From positions 157,156-221,155 of the forward strand of contig CALOBW010000030.1 of assembly GCA_942491525.1 (NCBI GenBank): DNA of 64,000 bases, read 5' to 3'. The position numbers were made by a program, and so were the translations under genes. Shown piece after piece: positions 2,504 to 49,197 of this stretch. The notes under the pieces are model-generated. The model was not told the origin of the DNA, did no database searches, and saw only the letters and a program-made list of their open reading frames with translations. Origin of the DNA: an uncultured Thermodesulfobacteriota bacterium. Lineage in GTDB: Bacteria; Desulfobacterota; Desulfomonilia; UBA1062. The number at the start of each line of letters is the position of its first letter. The stretch's first letter is position 1.

Positions 2504-2552
2504 GTCATTCCCGCGCAGGCGGGAATCCAGCGGCTTAAAGACACTGGATTCC
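2504..2552. repeat. Truncated REP/dRS3-like palindromic element
   Basis: GTCATTCCCGCGCAGGCGGGAATCCAG (ATTCCC-N8-GGGAAT core) ... CTGGATTCC; the right arm stops abruptly. Confidence 0.6.
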
Positions 2553-2609
2553 GAGTTGGGGCTGAACTGACGGGGTGTTTAACGCTATTTAACGTAAATA
2601 ATACTAACA

Positions 2610-4019
2610 TTAACCATACAACCGCTTAAACTCATCTATTGCAAATGAATCGGTCATACCTGCGAGGTGGTCACAAATTCCTCTTAATAATGCAATTTGA
2701 AAATTCTTATCTTGCCTATAAGACACTGAATCTATGGAATTTCTCATATCACCTAACTGTTTTGATTCAACATTAAGATTACTTACCATTTCAGGATCAT
2801 ACATTTTGAATACATATGTAATTGTTGAATCATGCAACTGCCTAGGATTCGTTAAATACGCTTTGAACAATCTACGAATTACAAATTTTCCTTTCCCGTC
2901 CATTCGCTGCGCGTCAAAAGAATTCAGAATACGATTACGCAAGAATTCTTGAAAATTCTTCTCATTCTTTTCAAATTCAGTTTCATAGCTAATCAGGCTA
3001 TTAATGTCACAATAATTAATGCCTATATATTTCTGAGCAAAATCTTCTTTAGAAGAAATCGAATTGTCCTTTATAAATTTATTCAGATTAGATGACGAAT
3101 TCAAAATCAAGTTCTTATTCAAGAAGTGGACTATAAACTTAGACATTTGGGGGAGGAAGAATACCAACTCTCTCTTTGACATTAATTCTGTAAATAGTTT
3201 CTCATCTTCATAATCAAAATGATTACTAAATCGTTCGTCAATCTCGTTTAATAATTCGTCCCGGTCAATTATTTTCATATACAAAGCATCTTCAATATCA
3301 TGATGCCGCTGAGCAATCTCATCTGCAATCTTAACTACATCAGCCTCAAATGACCACGCTGGACTAACGCTGTCTGCCAACAGAGAACCTTTGTATTTAT
3401 CATAAAATCCAAGATCACGAAGTCCGACGCAATCCTGGGGATTCAATTTACTGTAGCATTGACCATCACCCTCGCCCTTGTTCTTACAATCGCCCCATGA
3501 ATCTCTGGTATGATTAACAACACCCCACAGCGTATAATTGGTTAAATTCAGCCCAAACGAATTATACCGTTGTTCTAATTCTGACAAAACTCGAATGCCC
3601 TGCCAATTATGCTTAAAACCCTTATCTTTATTCTTCATCTCTAGCTGGAATTCAGCCAACTTATCGCAGCCACACATTATTGAATTCAACGTTTGCTCGC
3701 CAACATGACCAAAAGGCGTATGTCCAACATCATGCGCCAATGCAATGGCTTCAGTTAAAATTTCATCTAGAGAAAGATTTCTTGCTGTAGTTCGTGCAAT
3801 CTGACTTACCTCTAGAGTATGAGTTAATCGTGTTCTAACATTGTCTGAAGATGAAACAAAAACCTGAGTTTTTCCGCTTAGCCGTCTAAATTCTTTTGAA
3901 TACAAAACTCTATCACGATCTCTTTCAAACTCAGTGCGATATGGTTTCGCTGCAACCATCTCTCTGGCATCACGTTTAGCAAATTTATCTGGAGCTCCTA
4001 AGTGATATTGAACATGCAT
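2610..4019 (-). CDS. dgt: Deoxyguanosinetriphosphate triphosphohydrolase (dGTPase), HD family, AT-rich
   Basis: FERDRDRVLYSKEFRRLSGKTQVF, RTRLTHTLEV, ALAHDVGHTPFGHVGE, ADEIAQRHHDIEDA and DHLAGMTDSFA. Confidence 0.92.
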   Translation of the reverse strand: MHVQYHLGAPDKFAKRDAREMVAAKPYRTEFERDRDRVLYSKEFRRLSGKTQVFVSSSDNVRTRLTHTLEVSQIARTTARNLSLDEILTEAIALAHDVGHTPFGHVGEQTLNSIMCGCDKLAEFQLEMKNKDKGFKHNWQGIRVLSELEQRYNSFGLNLTNYTLWGVVNHTRDSWGDCKNKGEGDGQCYSKLNPQDCVGLRDLGFYDKYKGSLLADSVSPAWSFEADVVKIADEIAQRHHDIEDALYMKIIDRDELLNEIDERFSNHFDYEDEKLFTELMSKRELVFFLPQMSKFIVHFLNKNLILNSSSNLNKFIKDNSISSKEDFAQKYIGINYCDINSLISYETEFEKNEKNFQEFLRNRILNSFDAQRMDGKGKFVIRRLFKAYLTNPRQLHDSTITYVFKMYDPEMVSNLNVESKQLGDMRNSIDSVSYRQDKNFQIALLRGICDHLAGMTDSFAIDEFKRLYG

Positions 4020-4032
4020 TTCAAATCCCTCC

Positions 4033-4302
4033 TTATTCAGAAATATTTACAACAACATTTGAAACTCCAACAAAGTTAATGTTTCCATCCGGCGGACAAC
4101 AAACCCGACACCCCCGATACCCAGCCGCCCGCGCCTCGGCCGGACTAGCAAAAACAAGCCGATTCTCAGGATAGATCTTCTGCGCCCAGCGGCAGGATGG
4201 ATAGTGATAGACATCAGATTTGCGGGAGCCCCAGAACTCAGCCGCCAGGGCGCCGCTTACCAGCAGCAGGATCAACAGGAACGTCAGACAGGCCTTGCGC
4301 AT
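4033..4302 (-). CDS. Secreted Ada metal-binding (Zn) domain protein
   Basis: Signal peptide, then FWGSRKSDVYHYPSC...EARAAGYRGCRVC; ends in an AT-rich 18-aa tail. Confidence 0.8.
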   Translation of the reverse strand: MRKACLTFLLILLLVSGALAAEFWGSRKSDVYHYPSCRWAQKIYPENRLVFASPAEARAAGYRGCRVCCPPDGNINFVGVSNVVVNISE

Positions 4303-4470: not shown

Positions 4471-5199
4471 ATGCATGAGAGCGAACCACAGAAGATTGCC
4501 CGCGAACTTGAGCTGGCGATCTTCAAGGGCGAATTAAAACCCCACAGCCGTTTCCCCTCCGAGCGCACTCTGGCTGAGCGTTACCGCGTCAGCCGGCCGG
4601 TGGTGCGTGAGGCCATCACGCACCTGACCCAGCTGGGGCTGGTCAAATCGGTCCCCAAGAGCGGCACATTTGTAACCGATTACCAGTCGGCCGCCTCACT
4701 GGAACTGCTGGTCCACATCATGCAGACCACCGAAGAGATTGATTCCACCATTATCCTGTCACTCTTGCGCACACGCCGCATGATCGCGCCCTTTGTGGCT
4801 TTTGAGGTTGCCAAGGTCATCAGCGCCGAGGATCTGCGCGCCATGCAGCAGGCCGGCCAGAAGCTGATTGCCAGCCTCAATAATCCGGAGGCCGTCTCCG
4901 AGGCTGACTTCAATTTTCACTTTAGCCTTTTTGAGATAATGAACGATCTGATCACCAAGTTGATCTACAATGCGGTCAAACCAATTTACCGCCACTACAC
5001 CGATTATTACTATCAGCTGGACGGCACCAAGGCCGCCACCACCACCTTCGTCAACGAGCTATTGGACGCCCTGGCCAAACATGATGCACCAACGGCCCGG
5101 CAGGTTATGGATGATGCCGTCCTCTACGCCGAAAACCGTTTAATCACCAGCCTCAAGCTTACCGAGCAAGAGCGTTCCATCAACCTCAGGACCGGCTGA
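4471..5199 (+). CDS. GntR-family (FadR subfamily) regulator
   Basis: PSERTLAERYRVSRPVVREA wHTH plus FCD-like C-terminal domain. Confidence 0.93.
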   Translation: MHESEPQKIARELELAIFKGELKPHSRFPSERTLAERYRVSRPVVREAITHLTQLGLVKSVPKSGTFVTDYQSAASLELLVHIMQTTEEIDSTIILSLLRTRRMIAPFVAFEVAKVISAEDLRAMQQAGQKLIASLNNPEAVSEADFNFHFSLFEIMNDLITKLIYNAVKPIYRHYTDYYYQLDGTKAATTTFVNELLDALAKHDAPTARQVMDDAVLYAENRLITSLKLTEQERSINLRTG

Positions 5200-5266
5200 C
5201 CTCCGCCTGTCTCCAAAGTACAACTCATTCCTTAAAACAGCCGCCGCAGATTCCTCTGGTCCGGAA

Positions 5267-5326
5267 TCTGGCCTTACCAGATTGCACTTGACAACCCCGT
5301 GCGAGCCGGCGTACTGGTAAGACCAG
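5267..5326 (+). promoter_or_regulatory. Methyltransferase-operon promoter with two FadR-type operators
   Basis: TCTGGCCTTACCAGA (5267-5281) and CTGGTAAGACCAG (5314-5326) flank TTGACA (5288-5293); both resemble the PdhR/LldR-type TGGT-N3-ACCA box. Confidence 0.7.
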
Positions 5327-5366
5327 ATACATTGATTATTCTATATTTGACTTATTGGAGGAAGAT

Positions 5367-6536
5367 ATGAACCCAACCGAACGAATTCTCAGAACCATGG
5401 AGGGTAAACCGGTTGACCGGATACCCACATTCTGCGCCGGCCTTGAGGAGCGCACCGTTTTCGAGGTTCTGGGGCAGCCCCTGATCCAGACCAAGACCAC
5501 CCTCGCCAACCCCGTCACCCAGGCGCTCCTGAACAAATGGGGGCCCCAGATGACGAAACCCTTCGTGCAGCCGGCCATCACCAGCGGCATGGACAAGCGC
5601 ATCAAGGCCGCCGCCCAGCTGGGATTTGACGCGACCTGGGCCCTCTACGATGAAACCTTTATCGTCCTGGACGCCAAGAACATGGCCCGCTACACCGGCG
5701 CCCTCTTTGAGATGCAGGATGACGGCTACGGCAACATGACCTACATGTACAAGGGCCCGGGCATCACCAGCCGCGCAGAGTTTGAAGCCTGGCCCTACTG
5801 GCCCGACGCCGACGCGGTCGCCCAGCGCGCCTACAAATTTTTCAAGAAAATGCTGGCGCGTTATGGCGATCAAATCTGCTTTTGCGGCCAGGCCTCAGCC
5901 TACGGCATCCAGGAGTCGCTGCTCTGGACCATCGGCTTCGAAAAGGTGCCCTTCTGGATCCGCAAGGAGAAAGATCTGGTGGAACGCTTCATCGCCATGG
6001 CCGAGGAGCTCTGCCTGAAAACATCGCTGGCCATGCTGGATGCGGGCGTCGAGATCATCCTGCAGTCGGATGATTTCGCATTCAAGACCGGCCCCATGAT
6101 GAACCCCAAAATGATCGATCAGCTCTTCGGACCCTCCTACCGGCGCATCATCAAGGCCGTCCATGATCGCGGCGGCAAATATATCCTGCACTCCTGCGGT
6201 GACAACACGGTGCTCTTCGACACCCTGATCGACTGGGGCGTCGACGGCCTGCATGCCTATGAGAACACCTCCACGGTCGACATCTTCAAGCAAAAGGAGG
6301 TGCACGGCGATCGCGTCACCATGATCGGCGGCGTCGGCATCGACTACCTGCTGACGGAGCGCTCCCGCGATGAAGAGGTTGTGGAGATGGTGCAGCAGCT
6401 GATCAAAAAGATGGGCCCGGGCGGCCGTTACCTGCTGGGACCAATCCACGGCATGAGCAACATGCCGGCCGCCAAGCTGAAAGTGATGATCGAGGCCTGC
6501 CACAAATATGGCAGCTACCCTATCAATTTAAACTAA
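5367..6536 (+). CDS. UroD-fold (MtaA/CmuA-like) corrinoid methyltransferase 1
   Basis: GGAGG RBS places the start at 5367. IILQSDDFAFKTGPMM, YILHSCGD, MIGGVG and YLLGPIH are typical of the URO-D family. Confidence 0.85.
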   Translation: MNPTERILRTMEGKPVDRIPTFCAGLEERTVFEVLGQPLIQTKTTLANPVTQALLNKWGPQMTKPFVQPAITSGMDKRIKAAAQLGFDATWALYDETFIVLDAKNMARYTGALFEMQDDGYGNMTYMYKGPGITSRAEFEAWPYWPDADAVAQRAYKFFKKMLARYGDQICFCGQASAYGIQESLLWTIGFEKVPFWIRKEKDLVERFIAMAEELCLKTSLAMLDAGVEIILQSDDFAFKTGPMMNPKMIDQLFGPSYRRIIKAVHDRGGKYILHSCGDNTVLFDTLIDWGVDGLHAYENTSTVDIFKQKEVHGDRVTMIGGVGIDYLLTERSRDEEVVEMVQQLIKKMGPGGRYLLGPIHGMSNMPAAKLKVMIEACHKYGSYPINLN

Positions 6537-6547
6537 CGGAGGATAGC

Positions 6548-7192
6548 ATGATCAATTCAATTGACGCCGTCATCAAGGCTATTGATGAACTGGACTTTGA
6601 CAATATCGAGCAGGTTGTGCAGCTATGCCTGGATGAGGGCCTCTCGCCCCTGAGCATTATTCAGGACGGAGTCTGCAAAGGTCTGGATGTGGTCGGCGAA
6701 AAATTTAACAGCGGCGAATATTTCCTGGCCGACCTGGTCATGGCGGGTGAGATCGTGAATGAGATCATGCCCACCCTCAAAGCCCGCATCAACCCGGCCG
6801 AAGTTGTCAATAAGGGCAAGGTGGTCATGGCCACGGTCCAGGGCGACATCCATGAGATCGGCAAAAACATTGTCTGCATGCTGTTGGATGCCAACGGCTT
6901 CGACGTGATCGACCTGGGCGTCGACGTGCCCACCGCGCGCATTGTCAGCGCCGTCAAAGAGAGCGGCGCACGCCTGGTGGGACTATCCTGCCTGCTGAGC
7001 ACCATGGTGGACAGCATTGGCGATGTGGTCAGAACCCTGCAGAGCGAAGGCCTCAGGGAGCGCGTCAGCGTCTTCATCGGCGGCGCCTGCACCTCGGAGC
7101 AGCTTAAAGATGAGATGGGTGCCGATGTCTATACCGCCACGGCGGTGGATGCCGTCAAGATGTTCGCCCAGCTGAGCGAGAGCATGGCATGA
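6548..7192 (+). CDS. Methyltransferase cognate corrinoid (B12-binding) protein
   Basis: N-terminal cap (GEYFLADLVMAG), DxHxxG motif (VQGDIHEIGKNIV), VGLSCLL and IGG. Confidence 0.95.
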   Translation: MINSIDAVIKAIDELDFDNIEQVVQLCLDEGLSPLSIIQDGVCKGLDVVGEKFNSGEYFLADLVMAGEIVNEIMPTLKARINPAEVVNKGKVVMATVQGDIHEIGKNIVCMLLDANGFDVIDLGVDVPTARIVSAVKESGARLVGLSCLLSTMVDSIGDVVRTLQSEGLRERVSVFIGGACTSEQLKDEMGADVYTATAVDAVKMFAQLSESMA

Positions 7193-8118
7193 ACCTGATT
7201 GCGCCGTTAGGAACGGCCATGGGCATCAACCTGATCGGGGCTGCGCCGCAGGACGCCATCTTCAAGCCGACAGTGCAGGCCGAAGCCGTCGCCGCCTTCA
7301 GCCAGCGCTTCCCGGCCATCGAGCTGGTCTATAGCCTGATGGACACCTCCATCGAGGCGCGCGCCCTGGGCTGCGCCTATGAATTCAAGGGCCGGGTGCC
7401 GGCCATCAGCAATCATCCGGGCGCGTTCGGCCCTCTGCCGGACCCCTGGCAGAGCGAGCCCATGCGCGTCAACCTTGAGGCCGTGACGCTGATCCGCGCC
7501 CAGACAGACAAACCGCTGGTCTCCTACGTGGTGGGGCCGGTGACGCTGGCGGCCCACATCTATGGCATCACCCCCCTGATCATGCTCTCGCGGCGCAACA
7601 AGGCCGAGTTTGAAAATGTGCTGCAGCAGGCCTGCGCCGTCATCAAGCCCTATGCCCGGGCCCTCTGCGCGGCGGGTGCCGACTATATCGTCATTCTGGA
7701 GCCCCAGGCCCTGATCTTTGCGCCGCAGGCCTACAGCAGCCAGATCGCCGGGACCATCGCCGAGCTGACAGCCCAGATCCCCCAGGCGGTGCTGCATGTC
7801 TGCGGCGACACAACCCCCCACGCCCAGGCGCTGGCGGCGACGGCCAACATTAAAGCGCTCAGCCTGGACTGGCAGGTTGATTTCAGCAGCATAACGCCCC
7901 CGGCAGGGGTGTCCCTGATGGGCAACATCGATCCGGTGGCGCTGCTGCAGAACGGCTCACCCCAGGAGATCCACAACGCCGTGACCAGCCTCCTGGAGAG
8001 CATGCAGGGCCGCGACTTCATCCTGGCCACCGGCTGCGACATGGTGCCGGACACCCCACCCGAGAACCTGGACAGCTTTATCGACGCCGCCCTGGAGTGG
8101 CGCACCCGGCGCGGATGA
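7189..8118 (+). CDS. UroD-fold methyltransferase 2 (MtaA/MtbA-like Zn-thiol motif)
   Basis: VLHVCGD ... LMGNIDP ... ILATGCD gives H-X-C-X77-C; ATGA overlap with the upstream gene. Confidence 0.85.
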   Translation: MNLIAPLGTAMGINLIGAAPQDAIFKPTVQAEAVAAFSQRFPAIELVYSLMDTSIEARALGCAYEFKGRVPAISNHPGAFGPLPDPWQSEPMRVNLEAVTLIRAQTDKPLVSYVVGPVTLAAHIYGITPLIMLSRRNKAEFENVLQQACAVIKPYARALCAAGADYIVILEPQALIFAPQAYSSQIAGTIAELTAQIPQAVLHVCGDTTPHAQALAATANIKALSLDWQVDFSSITPPAGVSLMGNIDPVALLQNGSPQEIHNAVTSLLESMQGRDFILATGCDMVPDTPPENLDSFIDAALEWRTRRG

Positions 8119-9482
8119 AAACTTGCCGGCTCAGCCTCTCTGACGGCAGCAGCGCCAATTTTGCCGCCGGCACACGGCTGGCCGATGCCTTGCTGGAGAT
8201 GGGCATCGGGCTCGAGACGGCCTGCGGTGGCCGCGGCAGCTGCGGCAAATGCCGCGTTGAGGTCAGGGCTGAGACCACCACAAGCGTACCCAGACTGGCC
8301 TGCCAGACATATCTGGATGGTGACCTGACGGTAGCGCTGCACGCCCGGCGCCAGCAGGCGCAAGATCCCCCCCCTGCCGCCAGCCGCGCGGCCATCGATA
8401 TCGGCACCACCACCATCAAACTGAGCTTTGACGACGGGACCGAAAAAACATATCTCAATCCCCAGCGCCGCTACGGACATGATGTCATCTCGCGCATCCG
8501 GGCGGCCCGCGCGCCCGAAGCAGCCCGCCACATGCAGAGCCTGATCAACCAGACCCTCGCCAGCGCCATGCGCGGCGCTGAGATTGAGCAGATCGCCATC
8601 AGCGCCAACACCACCATGCTCTACCTGCTGCTGGGGCTCGACACCGCCCCCCTGGGCCGGGCACCGTTTAAGCCTCCGCTGACAGATTTCGGCAGCCTGA
8701 ATATCGACAGGACGACAATCTTGCCAGTCGTCGACGCATTTATCGGCGCCGATCTGGTGGGCGGGCTAGCCCTGCTGCACGAGAGCGGCCCCGGCACGCT
8801 GTTTGTCGATCTGGGCACCAATGGCGAAATGTTTGTGATCGATAAGGCGGGCCGCATCTTGGCCACCTCCTGCGCCATGGGCCCCGCCCTGGAGGGCATG
8901 AACATCAGCTGCGGCATGACAGCCACCCCGGGGGCCATCAGCCATATCAGCCATGATTGGCAATATGAAACCATCGGCGGCGGCGCGCCGGCCGGCCTCA
9001 GCGGCACCGGCCTGATTGATCTGCTGGCCAATCTGCTGCGGCACGATATCATTGATACGACCGGGCGCATCCGCCCAGACGGCCAGCTGCCTGACCAGGT
9101 CAGACGGATGGACCATGGCCTGCGCCTCTTTGACCAGATCAGTCTGAGCCAGGCCGATATCCGCAATTTCCAGTTGGCCAAGGCGGCCAGCCTGTGCGCC
9201 GCCGAACTGCTCGGACTGGATCAGATCGATAATGTCTACATTGCGGGAGCCTTCGGACAAAATCTCAACCTTGAAAATTTCAGACGGCTCAGATTCTTAC
9301 CAGCCCTGAGCGGCGCTAACTGGCACTATGCCGGCAACACCAGTCTTGCTGCCGCCCGATCCACCCTGAGCGAGCCTGGTTTCTATGGCCATGCCTGCGA
9401 ACTGCGCGACCGCATCGATACCGTCAACCTCTCGGCCTGCCCGTCGTTCCAGCAACACTTCATGCAGGCCTTGGCTTTTTAA
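8115..9482 (+). CDS. ASKHA-domain reductive activator of corrinoid proteins (RACo/RamA-like, DUF4445)
   Basis: N-terminal 2Fe-2S motif (CGGRGSCGKC...RLACQ), AIDIGTTT, VDLGTNGEM, GPALEG and YIAGAFG; ATG at 8115 overlaps the upstream TGA. Confidence 0.92.
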   Translation: MKTCRLSLSDGSSANFAAGTRLADALLEMGIGLETACGGRGSCGKCRVEVRAETTTSVPRLACQTYLDGDLTVALHARRQQAQDPPPAASRAAIDIGTTTIKLSFDDGTEKTYLNPQRRYGHDVISRIRAARAPEAARHMQSLINQTLASAMRGAEIEQIAISANTTMLYLLLGLDTAPLGRAPFKPPLTDFGSLNIDRTTILPVVDAFIGADLVGGLALLHESGPGTLFVDLGTNGEMFVIDKAGRILATSCAMGPALEGMNISCGMTATPGAISHISHDWQYETIGGGAPAGLSGTGLIDLLANLLRHDIIDTTGRIRPDGQLPDQVRRMDHGLRLFDQISLSQADIRNFQLAKAASLCAAELLGLDQIDNVYIAGAFGQNLNLENFRRLRFLPALSGANWHYAGNTSLAAARSTLSEPGFYGHACELRDRIDTVNLSACPSFQQHFMQALAF

Positions 9483-9491
9483 GGGGGAGTC

Positions 9492-10142
9492 ATGCCGATC
9501 TTTACCAACATTCCATTTAACCCGCAGACTGAGCAGCTCCAGACCCAATTGCGCATTCAACCGGGATCACGCCAGGAGGTTGATTTTAGGATGCTGCTGA
9601 GCGAAGCGCTGGCCGCAGCCAGACCCAAAGCGGTCTATCAGGCAGAGACCGTTGTCCGCGCAGACGGGCCCACCCTCGCTATCGGCGGCATCAAATTCAG
9701 CAGCGCCCTGCTGCATGAACAGCTGAGCCCGACGGTCTATCCGTTTGCCGCCACCTGCGGCCGTGAACTGGCCGAATTTTCCAAAACCCTGACCAGGCCG
9801 CTGCATAAGTTCTGGCTCGAATATATTCAGATCAGCGCCCTGAACAGCGCGACCCAATATCTGCAGGCGCAGCTTGCCGTGCCGGATCTGGCCTGCCTTA
9901 CGCCGGGATCACTGCCCCAGTGGAATCTTGAGCAGCTGCCGCTGATTTTTGAGCTGCTGGGCGACGCTCCGGCCGCGATTGGCATCCAGCTGATGCCCAA
10001 CTGTCTGATGAAACCGCTCAAATCTGTCAGCGGGATCTATTTCCGCTCAGCAGACAATTTCAGCAACTGCCGCAACTGTTCGCGTCTGGACTGCCCCACA
10101 CGTCAGGCACCCTACCAGGCGGCTGGATTTCCAGAAATTTGA
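9492..10142 (+). CDS. Stand-alone B12-dependent methionine synthase activation-like domain protein
   Basis: YPFAATCG, PGSLPQWNLEQ, MKPLKSVSGIYF and a terminal CRNCSRLDCPTR motif. Confidence 0.8.
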   Translation: MPIFTNIPFNPQTEQLQTQLRIQPGSRQEVDFRMLLSEALAAARPKAVYQAETVVRADGPTLAIGGIKFSSALLHEQLSPTVYPFAATCGRELAEFSKTLTRPLHKFWLEYIQISALNSATQYLQAQLAVPDLACLTPGSLPQWNLEQLPLIFELLGDAPAAIGIQLMPNCLMKPLKSVSGIYFRSADNFSNCRNCSRLDCPTRQAPYQAAGFPEI

Positions 10143-13950: not shown

Positions 13951-14229
13951 CTAGCCCAGATTTAGCAAATTCTCGGGATGCTCGTCATCAAGGATGGTCT
14001 TGAGATACTTCTCACCGGATTCGGTTACCGCCACAACCACGTCGGTCTTGTTGCCATTGGCGTCAACATAGAATCCCCACTCTCCAAGCTCAATACCGGC
14101 GATTGCCTGGCACGGAGAGATCTCCCACTCGGAACCGTCGGAATTCTTGCCACCGAGCAGTCTGATACATTCATGTGCACTTTCACGATCACTCTTCTGA
14201 ATATAAAGAACCTGATGTTTTGATGCCAT
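13951..14229 (-). CDS. DUF3892 domain protein
   Basis: IQKSDR...HECIRLLGG...W...AIAGIELG...FYV...YLKT..D....NLLNL pattern. Confidence 0.8.
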   Translation of the reverse strand: MASKHQVLYIQKSDRESAHECIRLLGGKNSDGSEWEISPCQAIAGIELGEWGFYVDANGNKTDVVVAVTESGEKYLKTILDDEHPENLLNLG

Positions 14230-14302
14230 AATCCCTTCTCCCTCAAATTTTTTCTAAGATGGTAAGTACTCGTAAATACAACAACAACCATTCTTAAATG
14301 CT

Positions 14303-14349
14303 AATCTAGCACAACTTGATCAGGCTCCGTAAGTATCCCAAAGGATACC
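14303..14349 (-). promoter_or_regulatory. DUF3892 promoter with upstream palindrome GTATCC-CAAA-GGATAC
   Basis: Minus-strand TTACGG-18-TAGATT with TG extension; same palindrome and geometry as at 4338-4384. Confidence 0.5.
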
Positions 14350-14357
14350 TTTTTGAT

Positions 14358-14397
14358 GATCACGAGGTATACCTTTGGGATACCTCGTGATCTTTTT
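14358..14397 (+). terminator. Perfect 13-bp hairpin plus U-tract in a divergent intergenic region
   Basis: GATCACGAGGTAT-ACCTTTGGG-ATACCTCGTGATC-TTTTT. Confidence 0.6.
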
Positions 14398-14519
14398 GTC
14401 AATATTTACAATATATTATGCGAATCAAAACATAAGAAATAAGAATAAAAAAAATCGGTTTTTTGGAAACTTAACGCATGATAGGGTGGAAAACCCGTGA
14501 AAAACAAATAGTGAGGTAG

Positions 14520-15080
14520 ATGATGTCCAAGATTATGGCCAGAATTAAATATACAATCGGGGCCGGCTTTTTTAAAATTACAGGCTGGCGCTGCGACCGA
14601 CTGCCCAAGGAGCTGGGCAACCGTTTCGTGCTGATCGGCTTTCCGCACACATCCAATATTGATGCGCCCATCGGCGTGGCATTCTCATTCATCAACCAGA
14701 TGCAGGCCAGCCCCATGCTCAAGAAGGAGTGGATGTTCTGGCCCATGAGCGTCATCTTCAAGGCCATGCACGTGATCCCCATCGACCGCGGAGCCAAGAC
14801 CGATGTGGTGGGTCAACTGGTTGGCGAGTTCAAAGCGCGCGACAACTTCATCCCCTTCATCTTTCCGGAGGGCACGCGCAAAAACGTCAACCAGATCAAG
14901 ACCGGCTTCTGGCACATCGCCGATCAGGCCGGCGTGCCCATCGCCATGCTCTTCAAAGATTTTGAAGAGCGCCGCATCCGCTACATGGGCCACATCCATA
15001 CCAGCGGCGACAAACGGGCCGACCTGCTGAAGATCAGAGAGATCTTCCAAACCGTCGACCATGAGGTGCCGGTAAGCTAG
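14520..15080 (+). CDS. PlsC-like phospholipid/glycerol acyltransferase
   Basis: GFPHTSNID (HX4D), VIPIDR, FPEGTR and GFWHIA. Confidence 0.9.
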   Translation: MMSKIMARIKYTIGAGFFKITGWRCDRLPKELGNRFVLIGFPHTSNIDAPIGVAFSFINQMQASPMLKKEWMFWPMSVIFKAMHVIPIDRGAKTDVVGQLVGEFKARDNFIPFIFPEGTRKNVNQIKTGFWHIADQAGVPIAMLFKDFEERRIRYMGHIHTSGDKRADLLKIREIFQTVDHEVPVS

Positions 15081-33110: not shown

Positions 33111-33893
33111 ATGGAGAGCGTCAGAAAACACGGAGCCCCGCCCTATGCCGTGGCCCTGGTCCACGGCGGCCCCGGTGCGGCCGGCGAACTGGAGCTGCTG
33201 GCCGCACAGCTTGAAATCAGCTCGCTGGAGCCCATGCAGAGCGCCTGCTCCATCGAGGGTCAAATTCAGGAGCTGCACAGCCAGCTTAAGGGGCATACGC
33301 CGATTATTTTGCTGGGCTACTCCTGGGGCGCCTGGCTGAGCATGCTCTTTGCCGCCCGTTACCCGGACCTGGTTAGAAAGCTGATTTTAATCAGCTGCGC
33401 GCCGCTTGAGGACCGCTACGCCCACAAGATTCACCAGACCCGCATGCAGCGCCTCGACTCCGAGGAGCAGCACGAGGTCAAGGAGCTGCTGCACGACTTC
33501 AGGGCCCACAACAACCAGGCCGACTTCACCCGCCTGGGCACCCTGCTGCGCAGAGCCGACGCCTTCTGTCCCCTGCCCCACCACGACCAGATCGAATGCC
33601 GGATCGACATCTACCGCAAGATCTGGCCCGAAGCCGCCGACCTGCGCTGGAACGGCCAGCTGATCGAAACCCTCAAAAAAATCACCTGCCCCGTCGCCGC
33701 CATCCACGGGGCCTACGATCCCCACCCCTACATGGGCGTCAAGGAGCCGCTGGCCAGGATCAAACCGCAGGCCAAGTTCCACCTGCTCAACCAGTGCGGC
33801 CATAAGCCCTGGATTGAGAAACATGCCCCAACTTCTTTTAAGACAGCATCGCCCGCCTCATGCCCAAATCTATCATTGATAGATTTAAAATGA
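33111..33893 (+). CDS. Alpha/beta hydrolase with replaced C-terminus
   Basis: VHGGPG, GYSWG nucleophile, GAYD and CGH; the last ~20 aa are read from AT-rich foreign DNA. Confidence 0.8.
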   Translation: MESVRKHGAPPYAVALVHGGPGAAGELELLAAQLEISSLEPMQSACSIEGQIQELHSQLKGHTPIILLGYSWGAWLSMLFAARYPDLVRKLILISCAPLEDRYAHKIHQTRMQRLDSEEQHEVKELLHDFRAHNNQADFTRLGTLLRRADAFCPLPHHDQIECRIDIYRKIWPEAADLRWNGQLIETLKKITCPVAAIHGAYDPHPYMGVKEPLARIKPQAKFHLLNQCGHKPWIEKHAPTSFKTASPASCPNLSLIDLK

Positions 33894-34846
33894 TCGAGAT
33901 CGATATAGAGTATAGCAACTTTGCGGCCTTCGCGATTGACCATGGCCAATGCTTGAGTCAGACGGTCCTGAAAAAGGTTGCGATTAACTAACCCGGTCAG
34001 ACTATCAAAATGCGCCAGTTGCAGAATCTGTTTTTCTGCTTGAATACGAGCAGCTTCACTACGCGCCAATTTCACATAACCAAACCCTAGTCCCAGCAAT
34101 GCAACAAACCAGATTACTGAATGAGCAATGAAAATTGCACCATGCACTTCATTGTAATCTCTGTGGAAAAGTCTCACAGGCAAAGTTACACTAATTCCAC
34201 CACGCAGATCACCCTCGCTATATCCTTGAGATGCGTGACATTTCAGACAAGATTTATCCACCTTTAATGGCATCATCATCCTGAAATAATATTTACCGTC
34301 CTGTTTAATACGTTCACTATAGTCAAAGGCGCCCTGCTCAAGTATTAGCAATGCTTTTTTTTCCCAGTTATCCGCAATGTTTTCGGGATTAATCGGATTT
34401 AAGCTAGTTATATGCCCGCTGACTACATTGCGTTGCTGAGCAAGGTCATAAACCTGTCGCGTCATATATGCCGGATTAATCATTGTCAGTTCCAACTCCG
34501 GTGAAACCTGAATATCACGCAGAGAGACCATTTCTGGAGTCAAATAACTATTAGGTTGATTTTGAACAGTCACCGGAACATATACTCCGCCATGCAGGCT
34601 ATTCCAGAGACGGTAAAGTTTATCCCGTTCAATTGAAGTTCTGCCGATCTCCTCAATTATGTTGTTAATCTCACTTTCATGCTGAATATTGCTCAACGCC
34701 ATTGAGATTAACAGAAACACTGACCAACAGATTGCCATAACAAGTGTTATTTGTTTTATTTTCAGTCCTGCAACATTATGAGCCATACTGTTAATATAAA
34801 CTGCTCTATTATAAATAGAAGAGGCATCATTTGCTTGGCATTTCAA
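33728..34846 (-). pseudogene. DUF3365 (heme-c) sensor - GGDEF protein, 3'-truncated
   Basis: TM - LHGGVYV...MINPAYMTRQ...CLKCH - TM - HFDSLTGLVNR...IDLDHFKSINDRFGHEAGDAVLKEV, then antisense hydrolase sequence; the GGDEF motif is absent. Confidence 0.85.
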
Positions 34847-34900
34847 GAATCCATCCTTATAATGTAAACTTATAGAACTTAAAACTTAAGGAGATATCGG

Positions 34901-35305
34901 ATGCCTTTAATAAACTGGAGCGATGAGCTTAGTGTAGGTATTTCAGAAATTGATCAGCAGCATCAGAAACTAATCAAGATGATAAACGACCTGGCTGATG
35001 CCATGCGCCAAAGACAAGGGAAAGAGGCCGTCGATCCGATCCTGAAGGGCTTGCTGGACTACACTGTGACCCATTTCAAGAATGAAGAAAACTATTTCGC
35101 GAAATTTAACTATTCTGAGACTGATAGCCATAAAAAAGAACATGCTGTGTTTATAAGTAAAATTGCAGAATTTAAAAAAGATTTTGAGAATAACAAAATC
35201 GGACTGACAACCAACATCCTGAATTACCTAAGCGATTGGCTTAAGAATCATATTATGGGTACAGATAAAAAATATACCCAACTCTTTCATGATAACGGCT
35301 TATAA
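34901..35305 (+). CDS. Bacteriohemerythrin
   Basis: WSDELSVGISEIDQQH, HFKNEE, HKKEH and WLKNHIMGTD iron ligands. Confidence 0.95.
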   Translation: MPLINWSDELSVGISEIDQQHQKLIKMINDLADAMRQRQGKEAVDPILKGLLDYTVTHFKNEENYFAKFNYSETDSHKKEHAVFISKIAEFKKDFENNKIGLTTNILNYLSDWLKNHIMGTDKKYTQLFHDNGL

Positions 35306-35495
35306 TAAATTTCAGCCCCGCCAACATTAAGCTGTCGGGGTAATTTGTCATCTCTCCGGCCGTCAGGCCGTATAGCTATATCCCTCTTTAAAGCCAAAGC
35401 TAAATTCACCATATCTAGCCATTATCTACACTATCCAATCCTTCATATATCTAAGCCACTGGATACCCGCCTACGCGCACTACTGTCCGGAATAA

Positions 35496-43035: not shown

Positions 43036-44004
43036 ATGAAGAAAATTACACCCTACATTCCGGGCCTGGCCGTCTGCGGACTGATCGGCCTAAGCGCCAT
43101 CCTGCTGGCGGGCTACATCCCCTACCTGGGCAGCGTCACAATTGCCCTGATTATCGGCATGTTACTGGGCGGCCCGGTCCGCAAGCATAATTTTTTCAAA
43201 CCCGGTATCAACTTCAGCGACAAACGGCTGCTGCCCTTCACCATTGCGCTGCTGGGTGTCGAGCTGCAGCCCAAAGTTCTGTTCGACCTGGGCCTGCCGG
43301 CCATCGGCCTGATTGTCGGCCTGATGGGCATAACGATTCTCAGCGGCCTGCTGCTGGGACAGCTCCTGGGTTTGAACCGCAAACTGAGCCTGCTGCTGGG
43401 CTGCGGCAACGCGGTCTGCGGCTCCAGCGCCATCGCCAGCGTCAGCAAAACCATTGATGCCTCTGAACAGGACGCGGGCCTCTCCATTGCCGCGGTCAAC
43501 TTCATGGGAACCCTGGGAATCTTCATCCTGCCCCTGCTGGCATTGAGCCTGGGCCTGGACGATACGCGCAGCGGCGGCCTGATCGGCGGCATCCTGCAGG
43601 CCGTCGGCCAGGTCGTTGCAGCCGGCTACTCTATCAATCCCGAAGTTGGCCAGCTGGCCGTCCTGATAAAGATGGGACGAGTACTGATGCTGGGGCCCAT
43701 CATCATTATCCTGAGCCTGTTTTACCGCCGCAGCGATCAGCAGGGCCAGAGTACCTTACCGGTGCCGCTCTTCATCGTGGGCTTTTTCGCCCTTGCCCTG
43801 CTGGTCGGACTCTTTCCCGCCCAGCTAACTGCCAGCATCAAGGCCTGCGCCAAGGTCCTGCTCACAATTGCCATGGCCGGCATCGGCCTCAAGATCGACC
43901 TCTTGGCCCTCCGAGAACAGGGACCCAAGATCATGATTGCAGAAAGTTCAATTATGCTGATCCAGATCGGCAGCGGTATCGCCCTGGTGATGCTGCTCTT
44001 CTAG
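43036..44004 (+). CDS. YeiH-family putative sulfate exporter
   Basis: LLGCGNAVCGSSAI, QVVAAG, IKMGRVLML and MAGIGL. Confidence 0.9.
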   Translation: MKKITPYIPGLAVCGLIGLSAILLAGYIPYLGSVTIALIIGMLLGGPVRKHNFFKPGINFSDKRLLPFTIALLGVELQPKVLFDLGLPAIGLIVGLMGITILSGLLLGQLLGLNRKLSLLLGCGNAVCGSSAIASVSKTIDASEQDAGLSIAAVNFMGTLGIFILPLLALSLGLDDTRSGGLIGGILQAVGQVVAAGYSINPEVGQLAVLIKMGRVLMLGPIIIILSLFYRRSDQQGQSTLPVPLFIVGFFALALLVGLFPAQLTASIKACAKVLLTIAMAGIGLKIDLLALREQGPKIMIAESSIMLIQIGSGIALVMLLF

Positions 44005-44060
44005 GACTTTCAGATTAACAAAGCTGCATAAGCTAAAACATTGAATATGGAGGAATCTTT

Positions 44061-44462
44061 ATGCTCAGAATTAAATACACCCTCTGGGGTGCCGGCATCT
44101 TCAACCTGGCAGGCGTGCTTATCTTTTCGCTCTGCTTCACCAACCCCCACCTGAACGATTACTATCCGCTGGTATTTTCCAACTTCGGCCTGATCGCAAT
44201 CATGCTCTGGGGCCTGGCCTATATCTCAGTTGCCGGGAGCTACATGCACGTCAGAGAGCTTATGTTTGTCTTTGCCGTCGAAAAATTGGTCTATGTCATA
44301 TCCTGGGTCGGCTTCCTGATGACCTCCGGCCACCTGCTGCCTGAAATATTCGAAAAATCAATAATGAGCGGCCTCTTCCTGAGCGCCTACGGCCTGGGAG
44401 ACTTCATTTTCGGCTGCTTCTTCAGCTGGGTCGGCATCAGGGGCTACCGGATCACCAGCTAA
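44061..44462 (+). CDS. Hypothetical 4-TM membrane protein
   Basis: GGAGG RBS and four hydrophobic segments (IMLWGLAY, FAVEKLVY). Confidence 0.75.
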   Translation: MLRIKYTLWGAGIFNLAGVLIFSLCFTNPHLNDYYPLVFSNFGLIAIMLWGLAYISVAGSYMHVRELMFVFAVEKLVYVISWVGFLMTSGHLLPEIFEKSIMSGLFLSAYGLGDFIFGCFFSWVGIRGYRITS

Positions 44463-44463
44463 C

Positions 44464-45330
44464 CTAACTACTGACATCGATGTGACGTTTGAACAACTCC
44501 TGAAACTCCTCCAGGTCCTTCAAATTTGTCAGATTGTGGTCTTCATAGGCCTCATTGACATAAAATTCGGACAGCGAGAAGGCCCGTTCAAGATCGCTGA
44601 GCGCATTTTCCAGATAGCCCAGTTTGGCACAGGCACAGGCCCGCTGATAAAAGGCATTGGCATTTTCCTGATCAATGGCAAGCGCCCGGTTGCAAAGACG
44701 CATGGCCCATTCCGGTTCATTCAGCTCCAGGACCGAGTCGGCCTTATAACTTAAGGCCTCAACATCATCCGGGCGGATGCTCAAGATCTGATCGAAAGCT
44801 TCAATCTTGCCCTGGGGAGTCGACTCGATGCCGGCTTTCATCCAGAGAGACTGAATTGTATTTGTCAACACGATTTCCTGCTGGTTATCCATAATCGCCT
44901 GTGATTTATTGCGAATTTCCTCTTCCATCACCGACAGACGTTTTTCATAGGTTTCGATGACATCCGCAACCTCACTCTCAACCGTCTCTCTGATCTTATC
45001 TTTGATTTCACGCAGCGAATTCCAGCCCAGCAGCACCAAAATCGAGGCTGCCGCCGCAATAATATAGAAAATATTATTCACCGTACTGGTGGCATAATTA
45101 ATGGCCTTGTCGGCTACCAGCAGCTCCTTGTCGGCGATCTTCTCCGTCATCTCCGCCCTGAGATTCAGCATCTCACTGCGCAACTGCTTAACCTCATCAA
45201 GAATATATCGCTCGACAAACGGATTATAGAGTGGCTTTTCCAGGCCTTCAATGGGGTCGGCTGATTCAGCGGCCAGCGGTAATGCCGTCGCGCAACAGAA
45301 CCAAAACATCAAAAAAAATTTTTTTACCAT
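44464..45330 (-). CDS. Exported/TM tetratricopeptide-repeat protein
   Basis: Signal peptide, coiled coil, TM segment, then TPRs (ALSYKAD...AFYQRACACAKLG). Confidence 0.85.
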   Translation of the reverse strand: MVKKFFLMFWFCCATALPLAAESADPIEGLEKPLYNPFVERYILDEVKQLRSEMLNLRAEMTEKIADKELLVADKAINYATSTVNNIFYIIAAAASILVLLGWNSLREIKDKIRETVESEVADVIETYEKRLSVMEEEIRNKSQAIMDNQQEIVLTNTIQSLWMKAGIESTPQGKIEAFDQILSIRPDDVEALSYKADSVLELNEPEWAMRLCNRALAIDQENANAFYQRACACAKLGYLENALSDLERAFSLSEFYVNEAYEDHNLTNLKDLEEFQELFKRHIDVSS

Positions 45331-45606
45331 CGTTAACTCCCTTTATACGAGTCACCAAAAACGACTCTGCCCTCTTTATAATTTTCAATTTCAATCATAA
45401 AAATGGCAGCAGCAATCAAGCTTACGCGTTAAGATAAGATTATCGGGATCATATCCGCTAATCTATGTATTGATAACTAAACAAGATTAATTTGACTTGA
45501 TGAGTTTTTTTAACTATACCCTCTTACAAATTTTAAATCCAGGGGAGACTCAATCTTTTTTTTACCTGGTGGGGTGGGCTGCTCGCAAATCACAAGCCCA
45601 TCATCA

Positions 45607-49100: not shown

Positions 49101-49146
49101 TTTTTAATTACCTGTTTTTTGCGTGTTAAGAGACTATTCATTTGAT

Positions 49147-49197
49147 GTGAATTTCTTGAATTTCACCCAACGTAACAAACCTCAATGACATTGTCAA
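49147..49197 (-). promoter_or_regulatory. proVWX sigma70 promoter with palindrome over +1
   Basis: TTGACA-17-TACGTT with TG extension; GTGAATTTC-TT-GAATTTCAC at 49147-49166. Confidence 0.65.

What the first reader, a model, noticed from the sequence alone, without database searches (positions are those of the whole stretch)
2560..4090. Solitary AT-rich dGTPase: candidate anti-phage nucleotide-depletion gene
Seen: a 469-aa HD dGTPase with intact motifs, far more AT-rich than its flanks, inserted alone between GC-rich genes. Established: some dGTPases defend against phage by depleting dGTP, separately from housekeeping Dgt. Inference: this is a horizontally acquired defence gene in a single-gene hotspot.
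Basis: partly seen in the sequence, partly recalled or inferred. Interest (0 to 1): 0.65.

Follow-up and report, generated by a model that had tools for sequence, protein, structure and literature searches.

The report
Foreign AT-rich dNTPase gene, probable phage defence
A single, clearly imported gene for a nucleotide-destroying enzyme sits alone in a GC-rich Desulfobacterota-like chromosome; it belongs to a mobile enzyme lineage that in other bacteria usually sits next to restriction-modification or mobile-element genes, so it is probably an antiviral gene, but of a subfamily nobody has tested.

Summary
Window 2610-4019 (minus strand) encodes an intact 469-aa HD-domain dNTP triphosphohydrolase inside a sharply bounded 1.5-kb AT-rich block (2578-4084; GC 0.36 against 0.57 in the flanks; GC3 0.32 against 0.68-0.87). 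No defence, mobility or tRNA gene lies nearby. Horizontal acquisition is strongly supported. The defence reading is supported only indirectly. The protein is NOT a member of the validated anti-phage dGTPase group: 22% identity to Sp-dGTPase, about 27% to the E. coli plasmid anti-phage enzyme, and 193 bits against a 400-bit NCBIfam cutoff. The PADLOC dGTPase model hits it but scores known housekeeping enzymes as high or higher, so that hit carries no information. What supports defence is the lineage. The protein falls in a monophyletic clade (86/100 bootstrap) with four clade-specific conserved cysteines. Clade genes stay AT-rich whatever the host GC. Of 11 other loci, 6 lie beside restriction or other defence genes, 2 lie in mobile elements and 3 are solitary inserts like this one. 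Host-native short-type dGTPase genes used as controls match host GC, keep aroK-aroB synteny and showed no adjacent R-M (4/11 against 0/29, p=0.004). "Hotspot" and "second dgt" could not be tested. Verdict: a new variant of a known kind, of moderate interest.

The parts
2610..4019 (-). 469-aa HD-domain dNTP/dGTP triphosphohydrolase gene (TIGR01353 family). It belongs to an AT-rich, Cys-bearing clade associated with restriction-modification genes.
   Evidence: ORF; Pfam, NCBIfam and PADLOC hits; catalytic residues conserved; AlphaFold2 pLDDT 92.2 and Foldseek best match Thermus dNTPase 2dqb; clade monophyly 86/100.
2578..4084 (.). Compositionally foreign block of 1507 bp: the gene plus 65 nt of leader and 32 nt of trailer.
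   Evidence: Maximum-likelihood change points, GC 0.357 against 0.565. A re-run on the reverse-complemented sequence gave a 1513-bp block.
4026..4032 (-). Shine-Dalgarno GGAGGGA, 6 nt upstream of the ATG and inside the foreign leader. No sigma-70-like promoter was called between the small ORF and the gene.
   Evidence: Sequence read directly; promoter scan.
4033..4302 (-). Small native ORF of 89 aa (N-terminal hydrophobic stretch that looks like a signal peptide, then an Ada_Zn_binding-like domain) with a chimeric C-terminus. Codons 1-71 are host-like (GC3 0.68). Codons 72-89 and the stop (4033-4089) lie in the foreign block (GC3 0.11). Its stop codon is 13 nt upstream of the dGTPase ATG on the same strand, so co-transcription is likely.
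   Evidence: Pfam PF02805 match ends at residue 70; codon statistics and Shine-Dalgarno site; sequence.
2507..2552 (.). Two overlapping GC-rich palindromes (ATTCCCGCGCAGGCGGGAAT, then GGAATCCAG...CTGGATTCC) 25 nt outside the left junction. They look REP-like and occur once in the window. Any role in the insertion is unknown.
2577..2593 (-). Tandem GTTAAAT/GTTAAAC motifs at the 3' edge of the block. They match the GTTRRRY core, but there is no partner RYYYAAC and no attC-like hairpin.

Best explanation
The gene is a recently imported, stand-alone dNTP triphosphohydrolase from a mobile lineage that probably arose in low-GC Bacillota. It landed as a promoter-less single-gene block immediately behind a small native gene. 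It displaced that gene's original stop codon and is probably transcribed by read-through, using its own ribosome-binding site. The enzyme uses a metal centre (H67, H96, D97, D241) and a His/Glu dyad (H105, E108) to split dGTP, or dNTPs more broadly, into deoxynucleoside and triphosphate. Its most likely biological role is antiviral: lowering the dNTP pool so that phage DNA cannot be replicated, as shown for Sp-dGTPase, Vdg, Ogmios and CloA. In many other genomes this works alongside an adjacent restriction-modification system. Shown here: the ORF, its motifs and fold, its foreign composition, the chimeric junction, clade monophyly, and the clade's association with R-M and mobile-element genes. 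Inferred: enzyme activity and substrate, co-transcription, Bacillota origin, and the antiviral role itself.
For: Family and chemistry. Foreign origin: block GC 0.357 against 0.565 and GC3 0.32. Gene-minus-flank GC is -0.21, whereas 68 host-native family members give mean +0.001, sd 0.024, minimum -0.061 and slope 0.98. The upstream ORF is chimeric. Mobile clade: among the 10 non-window loci scored (L103 is not in the regression), 8 sit 8-29 GC points below flanks whose GC ranges from 0.41 to 0.70. The regression of gene GC on flank GC, which includes the window, has slope 0.29. Clade members are scattered across Chloroflexota, Desulfobacterota and Bacillota. Members in Clostridia hosts are compositionally at home, and the sister branches are Bacillota. 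Defence association, with identities to the window protein in brackets: P0003 lies next to a type III methylase and ResIII (57%); P0040 lies 10 bp after a SNF2-DUF4391-methylase-ResIII operon on an element carrying SSB and PrimPol (51%); L017 lies inside a type III R-M operon (51%); L019 lies between GmrSD and type I HsdR (45%); P0011 lies with IS21, a reverse transcriptase and BglII/MT-A70 (57%); P0056 lies with a TIR-pentapeptide protein, BglII and a transposase (50%); P0010 and P0116 lie in integrase or prophage regions. In the PADLOC neighbour test, 42 clade neighbours hit 143 families led by REase_III and MTase_III (E down to 0), while 116 control neighbours hit 21 generic families and no restriction enzyme. 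R-M within two ORFs: 4/11 against 0/29, Fisher p=0.0036. The ORF is far too long to be intact by chance. Precedent for antiviral dGTPase subfamilies missed by current models and moving as single genes: Ogmios (10.1101/2024.07.02.601686).
Against: No member of this clade has been tested. Identity to validated defensive enzymes is low: 22% to Sp-dGTPase 9p8w, 20% to CloA and 26.5-27.7% to the PGAP 'anti-phage' E. coli plasmid enzyme. NF041026 scores 192.7 bits against a cutoff of 400. Tal et al. found that homologues below 45% identity to Sp-dGTPase are next to defence genes in only 10% of cases and may be housekeeping. In this genome there is no defence or mobility neighbour. Three of the eleven other clade loci are likewise solitary among housekeeping genes (L007, L018, L102), which also fits a metabolic role. 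The nearest solved structure is a broad-specificity Thermus dNTPase that was not presented as a defence enzyme. No insertion mechanism was identified.
Confidence: 0.55

Rival explanations
1. It is an imported housekeeping enzyme. The gene was acquired horizontally but serves dNTP-pool homeostasis or mutation avoidance, like E. coli Dgt or Thermus dNTPase. It either replaces a lost native dgt or adds to one, and has no dedicated antiviral role.
For: It is solitary among ordinary metabolic and regulatory genes with no defence neighbour. Three other clade members are solitary among core genes such as recJ/lipA and dsrE/der. The best structural and sequence match is Thermus dNTPase. By alignment it is slightly closer to the S. 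meliloti housekeeping type (33%) than to the anti-phage type (28%). Tal et al. regard distant homologues as possibly housekeeping.
Against: Housekeeping-type family members match host composition and keep aroK-aroB-dgt synteny in 18 of 29 loci. This clade does neither. Its distribution is patchy across phyla, and in 8 of 11 other loci it sits with R-M, other defence or mobile-element genes. It fails every NCBIfam housekeeping equivalog cutoff, for example 230 against 390 and 89 against 405.
Confidence: 0.25
2. It is an orphaned accessory of a restriction-modification operon. The clade's real function is tied to type III or type I R-M systems, for example throttling replication while the R-M system acts or establishes itself. 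This copy, separated from any R-M partner, is a stranded module with little or no function of its own.
For: The tightest associations are operonic with type III R-M: a 10-bp gap in L009, the gene embedded between res and mod in L017, and directly upstream of mod-res in L004. No R-M genes lie near the window copy.
Against: The ORF and all catalytic residues are intact despite a stop-rich composition. Four independent solitary copies exist in GC-rich genomes (window, L007, L018, L102), which suggests the gene is retained on its own. Validated dGTPases work as single genes.
Confidence: 0.12
3. It is neutral or decaying passenger DNA: a recent chance insertion that is not expressed or not useful and simply has not yet accumulated disabling mutations.
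For: No recognisable promoter of its own. No identifiable mobility machinery or partner genes. The exact protein is a singleton in 5.8 billion clustered proteins.
Against: The 469-codon ORF is intact where shuffles never exceed 135 stop-free codons. All conserved catalytic and clade-signature residues are present. It has a strong Shine-Dalgarno site and is placed 13 nt after a co-oriented native ORF. The same exact gene was assembled from an independent sequencing run.
Confidence: 0.06

Closest known systems
Sp-dGTPase / Ec-dGTPase stand-alone anti-phage dGTPases (Tal et al.; NCBIfam NF041026; PDB 9p8w)
   Same: It is a single-gene HD-domain dNTP triphosphohydrolase with the same fold, the same metal ligands and the same His/Glu dyad. 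Its clade, like theirs, is often found next to restriction-modification systems. The presumed mechanism is also the same: dNTP depletion during infection.
   Different: Identity is only 22% to Sp-dGTPase and 26.5-27.7% to the E. coli plasmid enzyme. NF041026 scores 193 bits against a cutoff of 400. It forms a separate monophyletic clade with extra insertions carrying four invariant cysteines. The recurrent partner is type III R-M rather than type I. No experimental evidence exists.
Thermus thermophilus TT1383 dNTPase (PDB 2dqb) and the short PRK01286-type 'dGTPase-like' genes
   Same: These are the best sequence and structure matches (143 bits; TM 0.77-0.83 normalised by target length) and share the catalytic core.
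   Different: They are about 100 residues shorter and lack the Cys-bearing insertion. In the genomes sampled they are compositionally native and syntenic (aroK-aroB-dgt), which is housekeeping-like. The window gene is none of these things.
Ogmios (dGTPase integron cassette of Vibrio cholerae; 10.1101/2024.07.02.601686)
   Same: It is a single-gene dGTPase-family unit that moves on its own, is reported as missed by the DefenseFinder dGTPase model, and is experimentally antiviral. This is the closest precedent for an extra antiviral dGTPase subfamily travelling as a one-gene cassette.
   Different: The window block has no attC site and no integron context.
Clover CloA/CloB and Vibrio Vdg octameric dGTPase (PMC12265719, PMC13519002)
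   Same: Same enzyme superfamily and fold. Both are antiviral dNTP depletion systems.
   Different: No CloB-like nucleotidyltransferase gene is adjacent. Identity to CloA is 20%. The oligomeric state was not examined.
E. coli housekeeping Dgt (PDB 4x9e; NF003429)
   Same: HD-domain dGTPase fold and catalytic residues.
   Different: About 20-26% identity. NF003429 scores 89 bits against a cutoff of 405. E. coli Dgt is a native chromosomal gene.

Membership tests
dGTP/dNTP triphosphohydrolase family (TIGR01353; HD + HD_assoc) | HD domain plus the phosphohydrolase-associated C-terminal domain, scoring above the family cutoff | tested here: met
   PF01966 46 bits, PF13286 48.6 bits, TIGR01353 256.1 bits against a cutoff of 152.35.
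dGTP/dNTP triphosphohydrolase family (TIGR01353; HD + HD_assoc) | Metal ligands H...HD...D and the catalytic His/Glu dyad | tested here: met
   H67, H96, D97, H105, E108 and D241 are conserved in at least 98% of 122 aligned sequences, including 4 references.
dGTP/dNTP triphosphohydrolase family (TIGR01353; HD + HD_assoc) | Family fold | tested here: met
   AlphaFold2 pLDDT 92.2. Foldseek probability 1.00 to 2dqb, 7lwz, 9p8w, CloA, 7tu0 and 4xds.
dGTP/dNTP triphosphohydrolase family (TIGR01353; HD + HD_assoc) | dNTP to deoxynucleoside plus PPPi activity, and which dNTP is the substrate | not testable with these tools
   Needs an enzyme assay.
Validated anti-phage dGTPase (Sp-dGTPase type; NF041026) | NCBIfam NF041026 score above the curated cutoff | tested here: not met
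   192.7 bits against 400. NF003701 scores 164.9 against 383.
Validated anti-phage dGTPase (Sp-dGTPase type; NF041026) | At least 45% identity to Sp-dGTPase (Tal et al.'s defence-associated subset) | tested here: not met
   22% identity in the structural alignment to 9p8w. 26.5-27.7% to the PGAP-annotated anti-phage enzyme of E. coli plasmids. Criterion taken.
Validated anti-phage dGTPase (Sp-dGTPase type; NF041026) | PADLOC dGTPase model hit | tested here: inconclusive
   It is hit at 259.7 bits. The same model gives 237 bits to E. coli K-12 Dgt, 346 to S. meliloti dgt, 341 to Geobacter dgt and 493 to the true anti-phage type, so the model does not discriminate.
Validated anti-phage dGTPase (Sp-dGTPase type; NF041026) | Located in a defence island in this genome | tested here: not met
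   No PADLOC hit in the 10 neighbours scanned. Pfam names the neighbours it matches as ordinary genes.
Validated anti-phage dGTPase (Sp-dGTPase type; NF041026) | Protects against phage, and protection is abolished by an HD mutation | not testable with these tools
   Needs an experiment.
Housekeeping dGTPase (E. coli Dgt NF003429; short PRK01286-type equivalogs) | Equivalog model score above the cutoff | tested here: not met
   NF003429 89.4 bits against 405, NF002326 230.6 against 390, NF002327 222.8 against 393, and the others lower.
Housekeeping dGTPase (E. coli Dgt NF003429; short PRK01286-type equivalogs) | Native composition and conserved synteny across relatives | tested here: not met
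   Gene-minus-flank GC is -0.21 against a control distribution of +0.001 with sd 0.024. Controls share aroK-aroB upstream in 18 of 29 loci. The window's neighbours are unrelated to these, and the nearest host relatives lack the gene.
Housekeeping dGTPase (E. coli Dgt NF003429; short PRK01286-type equivalogs) | Sole dgt of the genome | not testable with these tools
   Only 64 kb of the genome is available, and it has no second copy. The genome is not in the searchable collections.
Clover (CloA dNTPase + CloB nucleotidyltransferase) | Adjacent CloB-like NTase partner gene | tested here: not met
   The flanking genes are the small Ada_Zn ORF, a 176-aa ORF with a lipoprotein-like N-terminus, LysR and GntR. 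Identity to CloA is 20%.
Integron gene cassette (as for Ogmios) | attC recombination site (RYYYAAC ... GTTRRRY imperfect hairpin) at the 3' end | tested here: not met
   No RYYYAAC core on the sense strand and no candidate pair 50-150 nt apart. The flanking and nearby ORFs scanned with Pfam include no integrase. Not every ORF in the window was scanned.

The most novel reading that the evidence does not exclude
The window gene represents an unrecognised antiviral dNTPase subfamily. It is monophyletic, probably of low-GC Bacillota origin, and is marked by an invariant four-cysteine insertion that could be a metal site or a redox sensor. It acts either as an integral third gene of type III restriction-modification operons or as a stand-alone effector. 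It spreads across phyla as a promoter-less one-gene unit that inserts just behind host genes, by a mechanism that leaves no integrase, repeat, tRNA or attC signature.
Probability: 0.35. Interest if true: 0.55.

Novelty: new variant of a known kind. Interest (0 to 1): 0.4.

Why it matters
Nucleotide depletion by dGTPases is an established antiviral strategy, but the dGTPase family mixes housekeeping and defensive members, and current detection models cannot separate them. A compositional and contextual signature may offer a practical way to sort the family: the gene stays AT-rich whatever the host, lacks conserved synteny, and keeps company with R-M genes. That signature picks out a clade with no experimental record. 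If the clade is antiviral, it widens the known range of defensive dNTPases and links them functionally to type III restriction systems. It also raises the question of how a single gene without any recognisable mobility element is repeatedly installed in unrelated chromosomes. If the clade is not antiviral, it is a clean example of why homology-only defence annotation over-calls this family.

Tried and rejected
- **Empty-site and synteny test.** This failed. The 176-aa flank gene has no relative in GTDB genomes or JGI metagenomes. The small Ada_Zn ORF has no homologue at all and is itself not on record. The closest host relatives found through the neighbouring URO-D gene (75-84% identity) share only the GntR and corrinoid-methyltransferase module and have different genes upstream.
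- **Mobility signatures.** I looked for flanking direct or inverted repeats, tRNA, integrase or transposase, an attC site and Rfam elements. All were negative for the window. A 29-nt inverted repeat brackets the gene in L007 only, so it is not a shared feature.
- **Plasmid or phage carriage.** No hit of at least 60% identity in PLSDB or INPHARED. The best IMG/VR hits are 37-38% and BFVD gave nothing. I rejected a phage-borne or plasmid-borne origin as unsupported.
- **PADLOC hit as evidence of defence.** Rejected after the control.
- **Source names.** Cluster look-ups returned no names for the closest homologues.
- **Two-gene system with the small upstream ORF.** Considered and rejected. The body of that ORF has native composition, and no clade relative has a similar upstream partner.
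Full report
**The observation**

The window has an ATG-initiated 469-aa ORF at 2610..4019 on the minus strand. A GGAGGGA ribosome-binding site lies 6 nt upstream of the ATG. The ORF matches the HD domain and the phosphohydrolase-associated domain, and it passes the TIGR01353 dGTP-triphosphohydrolase cutoff (256 bits against 152). The metal ligands H67, H96-D97 and D241 and the catalytic dyad H105/E108 are conserved in an alignment of 118 relatives and four reference enzymes.

An AlphaFold2 model built on a 60-sequence alignment is confident (pLDDT 92.2, pTM 0.93). It matches solved dNTP triphosphohydrolases with probability 1.00. The best match is Thermus TT1383 (TM up to 0.83 normalised by target length).

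Maximum-likelihood change points fall at 2578 and 4084, with GC 0.357 inside and 0.565 outside. The gene's GC3 is 0.317. Nine of the ten neighbouring ORFs scored have GC3 of 0.68-0.87; the tenth is the chimeric small ORF at 0.56. This is the lowest-GC 1.4-kb stretch in the 64 kb. An open frame of this length cannot be chance in such stop-rich DNA (P about 3.5e-17; no shuffle exceeded 135 codons).

**Surroundings**

Pfam names eight of the ten adjacent ORFs as ordinary genes. It gives no hit for two of them: the ORF at 34-855 and a 176-aa ORF whose N-terminus looks lipoprotein-like.

- On the low-coordinate side, downstream of the gene in its own orientation, lie that 176-aa ORF and a LysR regulator.
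- On the high-coordinate side lie an 89-aa ORF with an N-terminal hydrophobic stretch and an Ada_Zn_binding-like domain, then a divergent GntR/FCD regulator and a corrinoid methyltransferase operon (URO-D-like, B12-binding, URO-D-like, RACo activase).
- Further genes are GGDEF, Omp85, TerC and similar.

None of the ten neighbours scanned hits a PADLOC family. The window has no tRNA. The block has no flanking direct or inverted repeats. The first 12 kb give no Rfam match. There is no attC-like site, because the sense strand lacks any RYYYAAC core. The window holds no second dGTPase-family gene. 'Solitary' is therefore correct.

**The junction**

The high-coordinate GC/AT boundary lies inside the 3' end of the small ORF. 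Codons 1-71 have host-like GC3 (0.68), a good Shine-Dalgarno site, and contain the whole Pfam domain, which ends at residue 70. Codons 72-89 and the stop have GC3 0.11. This chimeric tail is what one expects if the incoming DNA displaced the native end of the ORF.

The dGTPase ATG follows that stop by 13 nt on the same strand. No sigma-70-like promoter was called in between. I infer expression by read-through. This was not tested.

**Host and the synteny test**

The neighbouring URO-D-like protein finds named relatives only among Desulfobacterales, 'Deltaproteobacteria' and Desulfobacterota MAGs (62-65% identity). Three unnamed contigs are closer, at 75-84%. Those contigs share only the GntR and methyltransferase module. 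None carries the LysR gene, the 176-aa ORF, the small ORF or the dGTPase.

The 176-aa flank gene has no relative in GTDB genomes or JGI metagenomes. The small ORF has no homologue on record. Three tests were therefore impossible: the empty-site test, the 'hotspot' claim, and the search for a second dgt elsewhere in the genome.

**Is it one of the known defensive dGTPases? No.**

- NCBIfam's anti-phage model NF041026 gives 192.7 bits against a cutoff of 400.
- The PGAP-annotated 'anti-phage deoxyguanosine triphosphatase' on E. coli P1-like plasmids is 26.5-27.7% identical.
- The solved Shewanella Sp-dGTPase (9p8w) aligns at 22% identity and CloA at 20%.
- Tal et al. found defence-island enrichment (53%) only for homologues at least 45% identical to Sp-dGTPase. 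For more distant homologues the figure was 10%, and they considered these possibly housekeeping.

The PADLOC dGTPase model does hit the protein (259.7 bits), but a control shows the model does not discriminate. It gives 237 bits to E. coli K-12 Dgt, 346 to the S. meliloti chromosomal dgt, 341 to a Geobacter dgt and 493 to the true anti-phage type.

The protein is not a housekeeping equivalog either. All PRK01286-type models and the E. coli Dgt model fall far below their cutoffs.

**What it is: a member of a distinct clade**

The 120 best database hits are 43-59% identical, and most carry no source name. The few named ones are Desulfovibrio, Clostridium and Desulfosporosinus.

It returned only three loci at 45% identity or above: an Anaerolinea MAG, a Desulfovibrio MAG and a Clostridiaceae genome. 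Identity then dropped to 39% or less, into the abundant 340-390-aa short type.

A neighbour-joining tree of 63 sequences recovers the group as monophyletic (86/100 bootstrap). It is separate from the short-type cluster, which contains the S. meliloti and Geobacter genes, and from both E. coli references. Its sister branches are Ruminococcus, Clostridia and Lachnospiraceae sequences.

The clade carries insertions within the HD domain with four cysteines. C178, C188 and C197 are conserved in 118 of 118 members and C118 in 117 of 118. They are essentially absent from the references. The model predicts short beta-hairpins in that region. A structural metal site or a redox switch is possible, but this is inference only.

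**Composition as a clade trait, with a control**

I compared gene GC with flank GC for the window and ten clade loci. In eight of the ten non-window loci the gene is AT-rich (GC 0.31-0.41) and sits 8-29 points below flanks whose GC ranges from 0.41 to 0.70. The regression of gene GC on flank GC, which includes the window, has slope 0.29. The regression does not include L103.

Several loci besides the window show the AT-rich block essentially confined to the gene (block 1.3-1.65 kb): L007, L012, L017 and L018. The D. caledoniensis locus L102 shows a similar gene-sized GC dip.

As a control I used 68 family members at 35% identity or less from GTDB genomes. Their gene-minus-flank GC has mean +0.001, sd 0.024 and minimum -0.061, with slope 0.98. 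The window's -0.21 is about nine standard deviations outside that distribution.

Only in low-GC Bacillota hosts is the clade gene compositionally at home (L019 -0.018, L103 -0.048). Together with the Bacillota sister branches, this suggests a low-GC Bacillota origin. That is inference.

**Context of the clade**

Eleven other loci could be examined.

| Category | Loci | Neighbours |
|---|---|---|
| Beside R-M or other defence genes (6) | P0003/L004 | Directly upstream of a type III methylase and ResIII |
| | P0040/L009 | 10 bp after a SNF2-DUF4391-methylase-ResIII/RE_endonuc operon, on an element with SSB and PrimPol-DnaB |
| | L017 | Between ResIII/RE_endonuc plus DUF3800 and the methylase |
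| | L019 | Between GmrSD and a type I HsdR |
| | P0011/L012 | IS21, a reverse transcriptase, BglII plus MT-A70 |
| | P0056/L011 | TIR-pentapeptide protein, BglII, transposase |
| Mobile-element regions (2) | P0010/L002 | Integrase |
| | P0116/L103 | IS91, integrase, holin, P4 cII, Dam |
| Solitary inserts among core genes (3) | L007, L018 (recJ, lipA), L102 (D. caledoniensis: dsrE, der) | Core genes only |

Sources.

I then ran a controlled neighbour test, taking the two nearest ORFs of at least 120 aa on each side.

- The 42 clade neighbours matched 143 PADLOC families, led by REase_III (best E = 0) and MTase_III (best E = 1e-212), with three members each.
- The 116 neighbours of 29 short-type genes matched 21 families, all generic (MotB-like ZorB, TPR, RtcR, mad3/8). 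There was one marginal MTase_II hit at 1e-6 and no restriction enzyme.
- R-M within two ORFs: 4/11 against 0/29, Fisher p=0.0036.
- The controls show housekeeping synteny instead. An aroK-aroB pair lies upstream in 18 of 29 loci, with hemE or gltB downstream in some.

**Not evidently plasmid-borne or phage-borne**

No plasmid or phage record holds a relative of 60% identity or more. IMG/VR's best hits are 37-38%. The viral structure library gave no significant match.

**Interpretation**

Horizontal acquisition is well supported. My confidence in that claim alone is about 0.9. The antiviral role is the best reading, at about 0.55 for the combined statement. The enzyme is intact, and its lineage behaves like mobile defence cargo that often travels with restriction systems.

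There is also precedent that antiviral dGTPases extend beyond the Sp-dGTPase group and can move as one-gene units: Ogmios, Vdg and Clover CloA.

Against the antiviral reading:
- No member of this clade has been tested.
- This copy has no defence neighbours.
- Four copies, counting this one, sit alone among core genes, which also fits an imported metabolic dNTPase.
- The mechanism of insertion is unknown.
- Substrate specificity (dGTP or all dNTPs) is unknown. The nearest solved relative is a broad-range dNTPase.

**Novelty and score**

The kind of system, antiviral dNTP depletion by an HD-domain triphosphohydrolase, is known. This gene falls in a separate, uncharacterised subfamily with its own sequence signature and its own genomic habits. 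I therefore rate it a new variant of a known kind, with interest 0.4.

The most useful by-products are methodological. Current HMM-based defence callers cannot separate housekeeping from defensive members of this family. A composition-plus-synteny contrast did separate them in this sample.

Noticed in passing
window 33800-35400: A second AT-rich islet (GC 0.35-0.45) lies just upstream of katG. It holds ORF 33728-34846(-), which has a Tll0287-like domain and a GGDEF domain matched only to model position 64 of 161, and whose end overlaps the 3' end of the alpha/beta-hydrolase gene 33111-33893. It also holds a 134-aa ORF at 34901-35305(+) that looks hemerythrin-like by eye. It may be another foreign or decaying insert.
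   Followed up: partly
window 2507-2552: Two overlapping GC-rich palindromes (ATTCCCGCGCAGGCGGGAAT, then GGAATCCAGCGGCTT/AAGACACTGGATTCC) lie 25 nt outside the left junction of the foreign block. There is one copy in the window (0.04 expected by chance). They look REP-like, and their relation to the insertion is unknown.
   Followed up: partly
L007 9914-9942 and 11440-11468: In one relative's locus (P0023, 54% identity, also a solitary AT-rich insert in a GC 0.58 genome) the dGTPase gene is bracketed by a 29-nt inverted repeat that is 93% complementary. No other clade locus shows this.
   Followed up: partly
window 2610-4019 (protein residues 118, 178, 188, 197): Four cysteines are conserved in 117-118 of 118 clade members and essentially absent from E. 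coli Dgt, the anti-phage E. coli enzyme and S. meliloti dgt. They lie in clade-specific insertions where the model predicts short beta-hairpins. A metal site or a redox switch is possible.
   Followed up: partly
PADLOC model PDLC02374 (not a window feature): The PADLOC dGTPase HMM scores housekeeping enzymes (E. coli K-12 Dgt 237 bits, S. meliloti dgt 346, Geobacter dgt 341) as high as or higher than this candidate (260). Hits to it alone do not indicate defence.
   Followed up: yes
window 4033-4302: The small ORF with a signal-peptide-like N-terminus and an Ada_Zn_binding-like domain has no homologue, and is itself not on record, among 5.8 billion clustered proteins. This is despite host-like codon bias in its first 71 codons and a strong Shine-Dalgarno site. 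It was probably never called as a gene.
   Followed up: partly
window 4471-10142; L097, L098, L100: The GntR/FCD regulator plus the corrinoid methyltransferase operon (URO-D-like, B12-binding, URO-D-like, RACo, 216-aa ORF) is conserved as a block in Desulfobacterota-like contigs whose GC ranges from 0.40 to 0.56 and whose flanks differ. The module itself may move between genomes.
   Followed up: partly
L097 3841-5283 and 8197-9066: In the closest relative's contig a SEFIR/TIR_2-domain protein sits next to katG. What looks by eye like a tmRNA gene lies between smpB and the GntR operon, at the point where synteny with the window breaks.
   Followed up: no
L104, L105 (IMG/VR); L020, L121-L128: An intermediate group of full-length relatives at 36-41% identity occurs in gut and other metagenomes and on two IMG/VR viral contigs. 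It is probably the sister lineage of the clade. I did not examine their contexts or whether they carry the cysteine signature.
   Followed up: no
window 14000-15000, 44000-46000, 49000-50000: Further patches of reduced GC (0.41-0.49 in 1-kb windows). The last lies just upstream of the ectA/ectB-like genes. I did not examine them.
   Followed up: no
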